DNA from: Patescibacteria group bacterium
Lineage (GTDB): Bacteria; Patescibacteriota; Microgenomatia; UBA8517
Length of the DNA: 64,000 nt
NCBI GenBank assembly: GCA_022868165.1
Contig: JALHYA010000002.1
Location: 1,478-65,477, forward strand
Direction: 5' to 3'
Positions 17,840-19,834 of this stretch are shown here, one piece after another. Under the pieces are notes generated by a model. The model searched no databases and had not been told where the DNA came from. It saw nothing but the letters and a program-made list of their open reading frames with translations. A program made the position numbers and the translations under genes. Every line of letters starts with the position of its first letter. The first letter of the stretch is position 1.

Positions 17840-19834
17840 TTATCTAGGTTTTAAGTTAGCAGCACGCATATCGGCATCTACCATCATTTTTACCAATTCT
17901 TTGAATTTCACTTTGGGTTTCCAGCCTATTAACTTCTCTGCTTTTCCAATATCAGCCTGTAATACATCAACCTCAGTAGGTCTATAATACCTTTCGTCTA
18001 TCTCGACGTATTTCTGCCAAGATAAACCTGCAATACCAAAAGCTTCCTCAACAAATTCTTTTACTGTGTGTGTTTCTCCAGTGCCTATAACTATATCTTC
18101 CGGATACGGTAATTGCATTATCTCCCAGATTGCCTCCATATATTCTTTTGCGTAGCCCCAATCACGCCTAGCCTCTAGGTTGCCTAGCAACAGCTTATCC
18201 TGTTTGCCTGATAATATATTAGCTATGCTCTTGGTAATCTTACGAGTAACAAAAGTCTCGCCTCTGCGTGGACTATTATGAACTTTGATCAGATTAGCAC
18301 CAGTGGCAAAGGATTGCGATTCTGTCTGAATGTCATAAAACCAGTTATCCTCTGCTGCAGTATCTACAATATCGACAATCTCGTCTTTATCTCTTGTCAG
18401 GTGCCTTCCTTTATTGGTAGGTTTATCTGTAGTAAACTGTGCATAATAGTAACGTCTTCCAGCACGATAATCACACTTAACTTTAGCTTCCTGGTTTGGC
18501 GATATAGCAAACATGAGATATACCAAACCTAAACACAGTGTCGCAGACTTCGTTGTGAATCCTTTATATTTATAAGTTTCATTGCCTTTTTGCCTACCAT
18601 CTGCCATATAATAACCCTCGTAGAAAACTTTCTTGGCGATATTGTCACTGTTTAATACAAAAATTGGAATTCTCTTTTCGCTGCTTCGTTCTGTATATAT
18701 ATGGCTTCTTAACCAATGACCAAACGCACTATCATTATTTATATCTAAATCCCAGATATCATTTCGGCATCCATCATATTCGCCAACACCTTTATTTGTT
18801 AATCTATAGCTCCATCCATATCGCTTGATAACAGGCAAGGCAATCGTCAGCAATTCCTCTTTGTCAATACCAATTAATCGTATTCCTCCATCAAGTGCTA
18901 TATGCCCATCGCCTACTATATAACCTATGAATCGCAAAAGAGAAATGTCATCATTAAATAATGATTGATTGTTCTCGGGGTATTCTATTTTGAAAAGCTT
19001 ATTACCAATACCTAGATTAACTGTCATTACTTCCGCCCCATCATCCTTGAATACTGCGTGTTCAAAGGTAGCTTCATAACATGCTTTTCTAGATTGAATA
19101 AGTCTTACTCTCTTTTTGGCATCTTTATAACATGAACCGCTTAGAACACGTGTCCATTCTTTCCCATTCCATACATGCGAGTTAGCATATTCATCTTTCA
19201 GTCCTTCATATTTATGTTTCTCAGTTCTAAACATATCCTCAATTGGAATTATATCTATTAATCCATTGTCCTTTTTGACAATCAATGGGCTATTCTTCAA
19301 TATGCTCTCATGGTTAAATAGAATCCCGTTCACGGCAAAGATACCATAACTGTTCCTATAATGTATGGTTTCAAAATAACTGTGTAATTTTGCGATTGCA
19401 TAAGGACTGCCGGGCAACATAGGAGTATCTTCATTTTGCGGTGGTGGAGAATTGCCAAATTGTTCCGAGCTGGCAGCATTATAAAATTTAGTGTCTGGCT
19501 TAACTTGCCTAACAGCTTCTAGCAATCTAGTAGTTCCAAGAGCCGTAACATTTTCCGTATATTCAGGAATTTCAAAACTCACTTTTACGTGGCTCATTGA
19601 AGCAAGGTTGTAAATTTCATCAGGCTGTATCTTATGTATTAAACTGAATAGACTTCCGCTATCTGTCATATCTCCAAAGTGTAGTTGCAGTTCATCAAAT
19701 ATATGGTCTATACGTTGCGTGTTGAATGATGAGCTGCGCCGAATTATTCCATGGACTTCATAGTTCTTAGATAATAGTAATTCTGCTAAGTAAGAACCAT
19801 CTTGCCCAGTAACGCCGGTGATTAGGGCTTTCAT
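17840..19834 (-). CDS. gmd: GDP-mannose 4,6-dehydratase interrupted by a 344-aa intein
   Basis: N-extein ends ..[10 protein letters not shown] and C-extein resumes [14 protein letters not shown], so the canonical Gmd [13 protein letters not shown] is split. Confidence 0.85.
   Translation of the reverse strand: [664 protein letters not shown]
18275..19306 (-). other. Intein with LAGLIDADG homing-endonuclease domain
   Basis: First residue Ser, block B TEKH, LAGLIDADG-like [14 protein letters not shown] and [10 protein letters not shown], terminal VHN followed by +1 Ser. Confidence 0.75.

What the first reader, a model, noticed from the sequence alone, without database searches (positions are those of the whole stretch)
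18275..19306. LAGLIDADG intein inserted at the NHES active-site segment of GDP-mannose 4,6-dehydratase
The Gmd ORF reads ...[10 protein letters not shown], then a 344-aa insertion beginning with Ser and ending VHN, then [14 protein letters not shown]. Removing the insertion restores the near-universal Gmd motif [13 protein letters not shown]. The insertion has intein block B (TEKH), two LAGLIDADG-type motifs ([11 protein letters not shown] and [10 protein letters not shown]) and a +1 Ser. Inteins occur mostly in replication and repair proteins, so one in a nucleotide-sugar dehydratase inside a glycan island is unusual.
Basis: seen in the sequence. Interest (0 to 1): 0.7.

Follow-up and report, generated by a model that had tools for sequence, protein, structure and literature searches.

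The report
Homing-endonuclease intein inside a Gmd gene
A sugar-nucleotide enzyme gene (GDP-mannose 4,6-dehydratase) in a Patescibacteria glycan cluster is interrupted in frame by a 344-residue self-splicing intein with a homing endonuclease; it is real but belongs to a widespread, little-described family that sits at this same site in many bacteria, archaea and phages.

Summary
One 664-aa ORF (17840-19834, minus strand) is a Gmd interrupted at ..LFNHE|S..[11 protein letters not shown] by 344 aa (18275-19306). Deleting the insert gives a 320-aa Gmd that aligns without a gap across the junction to solved Gmd structures.

The insert is a class-1 intein with a LAGLIDADG endonuclease:
- It has Ser1, block B T80-x-x-H83, block F D325, terminal H343-N344 and a +1 Ser.
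- An AlphaFold model (pLDDT 87.6) matches only endonuclease-containing inteins at the top (TliVMA, PI-PfuI, PI-PkoII, PI-SceI).

One detail is wrong: block B is TFEH (80-83), not TEKH (28-31).

The "unusual" claim is overstated. A profile search finds 1,839 relatives. Of 160 proteins examined, 55 are Gmd-type proteins with the intein at this site, in Bacteria, Archaea and phage contigs. A gmd intein was noted in passing in Thermosynechococcus (PMC9403480).

The closest intein-less alleles carry the intact site [13 protein letters not shown]. Low intein GC, intein identity above extein identity across domains, and dN/dS of 0.1-0.2 all point to active homing.

Verdict: new member of a known kind, of modest interest. 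Splicing and cleavage themselves are untested.

The parts
17840..19834 (-). Complete intein-containing gmd ORF (664 aa, 76.0 kDa precursor). GGAG ribosome-binding site upstream of the ATG. The start overlaps the stop of the upstream methyltransferase gene.
19307..19834 (-). N-extein, Gmd residues 1-176, ending ..[10 protein letters not shown]. Contains GxxGxxG, the SSE motif and YxxxK.
18275..19306 (-). Intein, 344 aa (39.6 kDa), from Ser1 to Asn344. GC 0.361 against 0.412 for the window.
19304..19306 (-). Ser1 codon (AGC), the N-terminal splice nucleophile.
19049..19081 (-). Block B region (intein residues 76-86, [11 protein letters not shown]) with T80 and H83.
   Evidence: the strand-turn-strand context is in the model
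18410..18976 (-). LAGLIDADG homing-endonuclease domain, about intein residues 111-299.
18902..18940 (-). First LAGLIDADG motif ([13 protein letters not shown]) with catalytic-position D133.
18590..18628 (-). Second LAGLIDADG motif ([13 protein letters not shown]) with catalytic-position D236.
18275..18349 (-). Blocks F and G ([25 protein letters not shown]) with D325, H343 and N344.
17840..18274 (-). C-extein, 144 aa plus stop, starting with the +1 Ser (AGT) of [14 protein letters not shown].

Best explanation
The 1,032-bp insert is a canonical class-1 intein carrying a LAGLIDADG homing endonuclease, sitting in a functional gmd gene of a Patescibacteria glycan-biosynthesis operon.

Inferred mechanism:
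1. The 76-kDa precursor is translated.
2. The HINT domain folds and Ser1 undergoes an N-O acyl shift, assisted by block B T80/H83.
3. The +1 Ser attacks the ester by transesterification.
4. Asn344 cyclises, assisted by H343 and D325, and releases the 39.6-kDa intein.
5. An O-N shift leaves a native E176-S peptide bond.

The product is a 36.4-kDa Gmd with the intact [12 protein letters not shown] motif. It supplies GDP-4-keto-6-deoxymannose to the adjacent RmlC-like epimerase and DegT aminotransferase.

The freed intein, or the precursor, acts as a site-specific DNA endonuclease on intein-less gmd alleles at the conserved ..TTYAAYCAYGAG|TCNCCN.. site. It spreads by gene conversion. Phages that carry gmd probably act as vectors between lineages.

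Shown here: the anatomy, the predicted fold, conservation of the splice and nuclease residues, the empty sites, the patchy cross-domain distribution, and purifying selection. Inferred: actual splicing, endonuclease activity and target specificity.
For: - Junctions and restoration of a gapless Gmd.
- AF2 model with pLDDT 87.6 and pTM 0.88. The top Foldseek PDB hits are all endonuclease-containing inteins: TliVMA 7qsu (E 9.6e-18), PhoVMA, PI-PfuI, PI-PkoII, PI-SceI. These are followed by I-SceI-type LAGLIDADG enzymes and mini-inteins.
- A family profile matches PI-PkoII (E 2.3e-09) and the TliVMA intein (E 1.4e-08) over both LAGLIDADG motifs and block F.
- Across 49 Gmd-site inteins: T80 47/49, H83 49/49, D325 46/49, N344 49/49, G128 49/49, D/E133 49/49, D236 48/49, residue 1 always C, S or T.
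- The nearest intein-less Gmd proteins (73-78% identity for the best five, e.g. L008-L010 in syntenic DUF2206 / radical-SAM / GT2 clusters) carry the intact site. 113 of 120 top homologues read exactly [13 protein letters not shown].
- 13 further loci carry the Ser1 clade at the same place in uninterrupted 590-730-aa ORFs (12 at the identical E|S junction, one shifted by a residue). Hosts are Methanothermococcus, Methanophagales, Woesearchaeota, Sulfurovum, Nitratifractor, Omnitrophota and two IMG/VR viral contigs. One of these contigs also carries portal and capsid genes.
- Intein GC is below locus GC in all 13 loci and in the window.
- Intein identity exceeds extein identity between distant hosts, e.g. 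67% against 52% for Methanothermococcus versus Nitratifractor.
- dN/dS is about 0.1-0.2 in both the HINT and endonuclease parts for the three unsaturated pairs.
Against: - Curated single-family models do not reach threshold on this sequence: Pfam LAGLIDADG_3 18.3 bits against a 22.5 cutoff, Intein_splicing E 0.099. Recognition rests on the family profile and on a predicted, not solved, structure.
- No splicing or cleavage experiment exists.
- All evidence for mobility and selection comes from relatives. For the window copy itself, dS against its nearest relatives is saturated, so its endonuclease could be recently inactivated.
- The window lies in a metagenome-assembled genome. The second assembly may derive from the same sample.
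Confidence: 0.72

Rival explanations
1. The intein is splicing-competent but its endonuclease is no longer active. The element would be stranded and vertically inherited, at the decay stage of the homing cycle.
For: The window copy has no close relative (at most 60% identity), so recent mobility of this particular copy is not shown. Pfam LAGLIDADG_3 is below threshold. The window differs from the family consensus at a few conserved positions, for example Q239 where 45/49 have K.
Against: Both catalytic-position acidic residues (D133, D236) and the flanking glycines are intact. The endonuclease domain is full length and confidently modelled. In clade relatives the endonuclease part shows dN/dS of about 0.13-0.19, as low as the splicing part. 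Position 239 is variable within the Ser1 clade.
Confidence: 0.2
2. The 344-aa segment is a lineage-specific, non-splicing inserted domain of Gmd that stays in the mature enzyme.
For: Splicing was not tested. The element is in frame, and the gene sits in a tightly packed operon.
Against: The insert splits a motif that is exact in 113 of 120 homologues. All splice-chemistry residues are present and near-invariant across 49 divergent copies. The predicted fold is HINT plus LAGLIDADG. The closest Gmd relatives lack the insert entirely. The insert's distribution does not follow host phylogeny.
Confidence: 0.02
3. The insert is an assembly or binning artefact: a chimeric join of a gmd gene with an unrelated endonuclease gene.
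For: The source is a metagenome-assembled genome. NCBI annotates only a 224-aa C-terminal fragment as Gmd.
Against: An identical 664-aa ORF is recovered in a separate Logan assembly. Both junctions are in frame to the codon. At least 13 other loci and 55 other proteins from unrelated samples show the same architecture. The truncated NCBI call recurs in Thermosynechococcus and Laspinema records, so it is a gene-calling habit and not a sequence difference.
Confidence: 0.01
4. The intein has been co-opted as a post-translational switch. Conditional splicing would gate GDP-deoxyhexose supply for surface glycosylation.
For: The insertion lies in an invariant motif, so the precursor is probably inactive until spliced. 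The all-oxygen Ser1/Ser+1 chemistry is typically slower and more condition-dependent than Cys chemistry (general knowledge of inteins, not tested here).
Against: Nothing here points to regulation. The endonuclease is retained, the GC is foreign, and the horizontal-transfer pattern fits a selfish element. Close relatives do without it.
Confidence: 0.05

Closest known systems
gmd intein of Thermosynechococcus spp. (mentioned in Cheng et al. 2022, PMC9403480) and its relatives in Anaerolineae, Cyanobacteria and others
   Same: Same host protein and the same insertion site (..FNHE | intein ..HN | SPRRGETF; P0326). Full length with a LAGLIDADG domain. Detected by the same family profile.
   Different: It uses Cys1 rather than Ser1. 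The branch representative P0032 is only 26.7% identical to the window intein, and P0326 is 52% identical to P0032. The window belongs to a distinct Ser1 clade (S[ILV][LP]KNSP...) that is 45-60% identical within itself and at most 31% identical to the other Gmd-site inteins.
Archaeal endonuclease-containing inteins with solved structures: TliVMA/PhoVMA (7qsu, 7qss, 7qst), PI-PfuI (1dq3), PI-PkoII (2cw7), and yeast PI-SceI (1vde)
   Same: Predicted HINT plus two-motif LAGLIDADG architecture (Foldseek E 1e-17 to 1e-9). The profile aligns over both LAGLIDADG motifs and block F.
   Different: The host proteins differ (V-ATPase, RNR, DNA polymerase). Sequence identity is only 10-18%. At 344 aa the window intein is more compact than PI-PfuI, PI-PkoII or PI-SceI, with no large extra DNA-recognition domain evident.
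Inteins in UDP-glucose dehydrogenase of Euryarchaeota (UDP-GlcDH, COG1004; PMC4760082, PMC2874743)
   Same: An intein in a nucleotide-sugar metabolic enzyme rather than a replication or repair protein.
   Different: A different enzyme fold and insertion site. No sequence comparison was made here.
Yeast HO endonuclease (intein-derived, non-splicing; from my own knowledge). Relevant to the free-standing relatives P0007 and P0008.
   Same: P0007 and P0008 keep the HINT-like and LAGLIDADG parts but have lost the splice residues and are encoded as separate genes.
   Different: They are not in the window. They come from prokaryotic or phage-like contigs, have no zinc-finger extension, and their function is untested.

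Membership tests
Class-1 intein (HINT splicing domain) | Cys, Ser or Thr nucleophile at intein position 1 | tested here: met
   Ser1 (AGC). Across 49 Gmd-site inteins residue 1 is C in 29, S in 13 and T in 7.
Class-1 intein (HINT splicing domain) | Block B TxxH | tested here: met
T80-F-E-H83. T is found in 47/49 and H in 49/49.
Class-1 intein (HINT splicing domain) | Block F Asp and block G His-Asn at the C-terminus | tested here: met
   D325 (46/49), H343, N344 (49/49). HN is found in 32/49; the rest have GN, AN or SN.
Class-1 intein (HINT splicing domain) | Cys, Ser or Thr at +1 of the C-extein | tested here: met
   Ser (AGT), the first residue of SPRRGETF.
Class-1 intein (HINT splicing domain) | In-frame insertion whose removal restores a contiguous host protein; intein-less alleles exist | tested here: met
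   Gapless alignment to 1n7g and others. The best five intein-less homologues are 73-78% identical, and 113 of 120 top homologues read exactly [13 protein letters not shown].
Class-1 intein (HINT splicing domain) | HINT fold | tested here: met
   Predicted only. The AF2 model (pLDDT 87.6) matches intein structures, including mini-inteins and the hedgehog HINT domain 1at0.
Class-1 intein (HINT splicing domain) | Match to the curated intein model (Pfam Intein_splicing, or NCBIfam intein N-terminal and C-terminal models) | tested here: not met
   PF14890 E 0.099, 12.9 bits against a 35.8 cutoff. No NCBIfam intein model hit; only weak hits to intein-containing RFC and GyrA models. The family is too divergent for these models.
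Class-1 intein (HINT splicing domain) | Autocatalytic protein splicing | not testable with these tools
   Requires expression and detection of the 36.4-kDa and 39.6-kDa products.
LAGLIDADG homing endonuclease (two-motif, monomeric) | Two LAGLIDADG motifs, each ending in an acidic residue followed by Gly | tested here: met
   ..IVGD133G.. and ..YMAD236G.. These align to the PI-PkoII and TliVMA motifs.
LAGLIDADG homing endonuclease (two-motif, monomeric) | Curated Pfam model above its gathering score | tested here: not met
   PF14528 LAGLIDADG_3 scores 18.3 bits against a 22.5 cutoff (E 0.0028). The family profile reaches E 2.3e-09 against PI-PkoII.
LAGLIDADG homing endonuclease (two-motif, monomeric) | Alpha-beta-beta-alpha-beta-beta-alpha double-domain fold | tested here: met
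   Predicted. Foldseek matches I-SceI, I-WcaI and I-Tsp061I over the central domain (E 6e-6 to 3e-4).
LAGLIDADG homing endonuclease (two-motif, monomeric) | Site-specific cleavage of the intein-less allele, and homing | not testable with these tools
   Indirect support only: patchy cross-domain and phage distribution, intein identity above extein identity, low GC, and dN/dS of 0.1-0.2.
GDP-mannose 4,6-dehydratase (TIGR01472 / PF16363) | Equivalog model above cutoff; SDR Ser/Thr-Tyr-Lys motifs present | tested here: met
   TIGR01472 scores 450 bits against a 415 cutoff with the intein still in place. The SSE and YxxxK motifs align to MUR1. Enzyme activity was not tested.

The most novel reading that the evidence does not exclude
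The Gmd-site intein is a large, under-recognised homing family that moves between Bacteria, Archaea and phages through phage-borne gmd genes. It also gives rise to free-standing, splicing-dead HINT-plus-LAGLIDADG endonucleases encoded next to Gmd-like genes with an altered target motif (P0007 and P0008 in L001-L003). That would be a prokaryotic counterpart of the intein-to-HO transition and a living example of an intein turning into a free-standing homing endonuclease. The window copy would be one intact member of this system.
Probability: 0.3. Interest if true: 0.55.

Novelty: new member of a known kind. Interest (0 to 1): 0.3.

Why it matters
- **Annotation.** Public records truncate these genes to a C-terminal fragment that starts inside the intein. 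Examples are the window's own NCBI protein of 224 aa, Thermosynechococcus at 450 aa and Laspinema at 433 aa. Gmd therefore looks broken or short in many genomes when it is probably intact after splicing.
- **Biology.** The element adds a well-populated metabolic-enzyme insertion site to the intein catalogue. It has Cys1, Ser1 and Thr1 variants at one site and clear cross-domain and phage-associated spread. This makes it useful for studying homing outside replication proteins, and a possible source of compact all-oxygen-chemistry inteins for protein engineering.
- **Limits.** It does not change any concept of how inteins work.

Tried and rejected
- **Curated models on the insert alone.** Pfam and NCBIfam give only sub-threshold hits. 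A single-sequence PDB search gives one weak hit, PI-PkoII at E 0.0019. A family profile and a structure prediction were needed.
- **PHROGs on ten large window ORFs, to test whether the window is a phage.** Only a transposase and one unknown family hit. Pfam shows an STT3-like oligosaccharyltransferase and DUF2341 surface proteins. There are no tRNA genes and no Rfam hits. I treat the window as cellular (Patescibacteria, per the NCBI record name), not phage.
- **Other inteins in the window.** An HMM of 49 Gmd-site inteins run against all six-frame ORFs finds only this one.
- **The search for related loci with the 14-row alignment** failed because it had no conserved stretch. A 4-row alignment worked.
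- **Literature searches** for intein plus GDP-mannose, Gmd, Patescibacteria or sugar dehydratase. One passing mention of a gmd intein turned up. No dedicated description was found in the searchable library. Supplements of the 2016 intein survey are not held.
- **dN/dS for the window copy itself** is not informative because dS is saturated against all relatives. The L018-L021 pair was discarded as saturated or poorly aligned.
- **The exact 224-aa NCBI protein** is not on record as a gene in the contig index.
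Full report
**1. What is in the sequence**

A single ORF on the minus strand, window 17840-19834, encodes 664 aa.
- Residues 1-176 and 521-664 are GDP-mannose 4,6-dehydratase. Pfam GDP_Man_Dehyd matches in two stretches (E 5.8e-119). NCBIfam TIGR01472 scores 450 bits against a 415 cutoff.
- Residues 177-520 correspond to window 18275-19306, 344 aa.
- The junctions read ..[17 protein letters not shown]... and ...[22 protein letters not shown].
- The gene has a GGAG ribosome-binding site, and its ATG overlaps the stop of the upstream gene.
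- An identical 664-aa ORF is found in a separate Logan assembly (SRR19116065, 22.9-kb contig).

**2. Removing the insert restores Gmd**

- The 320-aa spliced sequence aligns without a gap across the junction to Arabidopsis MUR1 (1n7g, E 1.8e-123) and to ten other solved Gmd proteins.
- Among the 120 best intein-less homologues, 113 read exactly [13 protein letters not shown].
- The closest of these (P0161-P0165, 73-78% identical, 318-326 aa) lack the insert.
- Two of them lie in gene clusters resembling the window's, with DUF2206, B12-radical-SAM, GT2 and N6_N4 methyltransferase genes (L008, L009).
- Their DNA at the site is ..TTTAATCATGAG|TCTCC... The window's flanks read ..TTTAACCATGAG|AGTCC...

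**3. The insert is an intein with a LAGLIDADG endonuclease**

Curated single-family models barely see it. LAGLIDADG_3 scores 18.3 bits against a 22.5 cutoff, and Intein_splicing has E 0.099. A single-sequence PDB search gives only PI-PkoII at E 0.0019.

Homology and structure evidence is much stronger.
- A homology search found 14 relatives. Nearly all are Gmd fragments with the insert at the same site.
- A profile built from them matches PI-PkoII (E 2.3e-09) and the TliVMA intein (E 1.4e-08) over both LAGLIDADG motifs and block F.
- An AlphaFold2 model made with that alignment is confident (pLDDT 87.6, pTM 0.88).
- Its best Foldseek matches in the PDB are all endonuclease-containing inteins: TliVMA 7qsu (E 9.6e-18), PhoVMA, PI-PfuI, PI-PkoII and PI-SceI. 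They are followed by I-SceI-type enzymes and mini-inteins.

**4. Splice and nuclease residues**

I aligned 49 Gmd-site inteins. The conserved positions, numbered on the window intein, are:

| Position | Role | Conservation |
|---|---|---|
| Residue 1 | N-terminal nucleophile | C 29, S 13, T 7 |
| T80 | block B | 47/49 |
| H83 | block B | 49/49 |
| G128 | first LAGLIDADG motif | 49/49 |
| D/E133 | first catalytic-position acidic residue | 49/49 |
| D236 | second catalytic-position acidic residue | 48/49 |
| D325 | block F | 46/49 |
| N344 | C-terminal Asn | 49/49 |

The window has S1, T80, H83, D133, D236, D325, H343, N344 and a +1 Ser.

It falls in a short helical segment of the model. TFEH (80-83) sits at a strand-turn-strand, as block B should.

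**5. How common it is**

The profile, searched against 1.84 billion representative proteins, gives 1,839 hits at E <= 0.001 and 64 at E <= 1e-30.

I examined 160 proteins: 14 from the first search (90%-identity clusters) and 146 from the 50%-identity representative library.
- 55 have Gmd-type N- and C-exteins flanking the intein at this same site.
- 28 more are fragments with one extein.
- A few of the 55 are a neighbouring SDR family with the homologous site FNHS|...HN|TGPRRG.

Named hosts include Anaerolinea, Ardenticatenaceae, Rhodothermales, Anaeromyxobacter, Planctomycetota, Thermosynechococcus, Pseudanabaenaceae, Laspinema, Acidimicrobiales and Thermoplasmata.

The window's own Ser1 clade occurs in Methanothermococcus, Methanophagales, Woesearchaeota, Nitratifractor, Sulfurovum, other Campylobacterales, Omnitrophota and two IMG/VR viral contigs. 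In every locus it interrupts Gmd at this place within an uninterrupted ORF; 12 of the 13 share the identical E|S junction and one (L023, FNHEG|S..HN|SRRG) is shifted by a residue. One of those viral contigs also carries portal and HK97-type capsid genes.

In the literature library, a full-length gmd intein is mentioned in one sentence for Thermosynechococcus strains (PMC9403480). I confirmed that a Thermosynechococcus Gmd record ends its intein with ..[12 protein letters not shown], the same site. Surveys list UDP-glucose dehydrogenase as the nucleotide-sugar enzyme with inteins. I found no dedicated description of the Gmd allele.

**6. Evidence that it is, or recently was, mobile**

- Intein GC is lower than locus GC in the window (0.361 against 0.412) and in all 13 related loci, for example 0.279 against 0.403 in Methanophagales.
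- Intein identity exceeds extein identity for most cross-lineage pairs:
  - Methanothermococcus and Methanophagales, 72% against 52%.
  - Methanothermococcus and Nitratifractor, 67% against 52%.
  - Sulfurovum and Nitratifractor, 75% against 55%.
  - The window and Methanothermococcus, 57% against 46%.
- This is the reverse of what vertical descent of a fast-evolving insert in a slow-evolving enzyme would give.
- For the three unsaturated pairs, dN/dS is 0.10-0.17 overall and 0.13-0.19 in the endonuclease part. The nuclease is therefore being maintained.
- For the window copy itself, dS is saturated against every relative. Its present activity is inferred from intact residues only.

**7. Most likely mechanism**

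The precursor (76.0 kDa) splices by the standard four-step class-1 route, using oxygen nucleophiles only (Ser1 and Ser+1). It yields a 36.4-kDa Gmd and a 39.6-kDa intein.

Gmd then feeds the adjacent enzymes of a larger glycan cluster:
- an RmlC-like epimerase (16872-17399);
- a DegT-family aminotransferase (15778-16875);
- methyltransferases and GT2 glycosyltransferases;
- an STT3-like oligosaccharyltransferase (30846-32465).

The intein's LAGLIDADG domain would cut intein-less gmd at the conserved site and spread by repair. Splicing, cleavage and specificity are inferences.

**8. Rivals**

| Rival | Confidence | Basis |
|---|---|---|
| Stranded intein with a dead nuclease | about 0.2 | not excluded for this copy |
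| Non-splicing domain | 0.02 | points 2, 4 and 5 above |
| Assembly artefact | 0.01 | points 1 and 5 above |
| Regulatory (conditional-splicing) role | 0.05 | not excluded, but nothing supports it |

**9. Verdict**

This is a new, divergent member (the Ser1 clade) of an existing kind. That kind is a Gmd-site intein family that is widespread in metagenomes, noted once in the literature, and routinely mis-annotated as a truncated Gmd. Interest is modest. The more unusual leads lie outside the window and are listed under noticed in passing.

Noticed in passing
L001 8001-9011 (also L002 and L003; proteins P0008 and P0007): A free-standing 336-340-aa ORF is 45-46% identical to the window intein. 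It has lost Ser1, block B TxxH, the block F Asp and the terminal His-Asn, but keeps both LAGLIDADG acidic residues (E and D). It starts 1 nt after the stop of a divergent Gmd-like gene (L001 6992-7999; TIGR01472 267 bits, below cutoff) whose site reads FNHTGKFRGESF instead of [12 protein letters not shown]. The N-terminus of P0007 (..INTEF|LLKDSP) looks like a vestige of the FNHES extein. This may be an intein-derived free-standing homing endonuclease, analogous to HO.
   Followed up: partly
L004-L006 and L022 (protein P0002); L023: An intein-containing gmd of the same Ser1 clade lies on contigs that also carry a phage portal, a Mu-F-like gene and an HK97-type capsid gene. These contigs are listed in IMG/VR. 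Phage-borne gmd genes could carry the intein between hosts.
   Followed up: partly
Proteins P0026, P0034, P0037, P0051, P0056, P0065, P0112: Gmd-site inteins with Thr at position 1 (FNHE|T..). Many others have GN, AN or SN instead of HN at the C-terminus. So three different N-terminal nucleophiles occur at one insertion site.
   Followed up: no
NCBI proteins MCJ7805184.1 (P0014, the window's own record), P0326 (Thermosynechococcus sp.), P0338 (Laspinema palackyanum), P0354 (Thermoplasmata): Public annotation calls only a truncated 'GDP-mannose 4,6-dehydratase' that starts at a Met inside the intein (224, 450, 433 and 407 aa). The N-extein and the start of the intein are missed. This is a recurring gene-calling error for this allele.
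   Followed up: partly
Proteins P0030, P0042, P0047, P0052, P0073, P0106: A related intein occupies the homologous position (..FNHS|...HN|TGPRRG..) of a different extended-SDR family, whose best NCBIfam matches are LegB-like and Gmd-like and fall below cutoff. The intein lineage has therefore crossed between paralogous nucleotide-sugar enzymes.
   Followed up: no
window 20606-21169 (-) and about 12754-13344 (-): An MT-A70-family adenine methyltransferase and an N6_N4 DNA methyltransferase are embedded among the sugar-biosynthesis and glycosyltransferase genes. The same N6_N4 methyltransferase association appears next to the intein-less relative in L009.
   Followed up: no
window 23293-27536 (-), 30846-32465 (-), 42261-52722 (-): The glycan cluster includes two B12-binding radical-SAM enzymes, DUF2206 membrane proteins and an STT3-like oligosaccharyltransferase. 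Very large ORFs follow (1,755, 679 and 919 aa); the 919-aa ORF has a DUF2341 domain and the other two have no Pfam match. There are no tRNA genes and no Rfam hits anywhere in the 64 kb.
   Followed up: no
window 9582-10637 (+): An rve/DDE-type transposase ORF (PHROG transposase families, E 2.4e-18; rve in the Logan gene call) lies about 7 kb from the gmd gene, at the edge of the glycan cluster.
   Followed up: no
window 19304-19306 and 18272-18274: The intein Ser1 and the +1 Ser both use AGY codons (AGC and AGT; AGT and AGC in the phage copy L004). The intein-less alleles L008-L010 use TCT for the corresponding Ser. The DNA-level insertion boundary is therefore ambiguous by up to 2 nt. The codon switch might reflect co-conversion of flanking sequence.
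   Followed up: no
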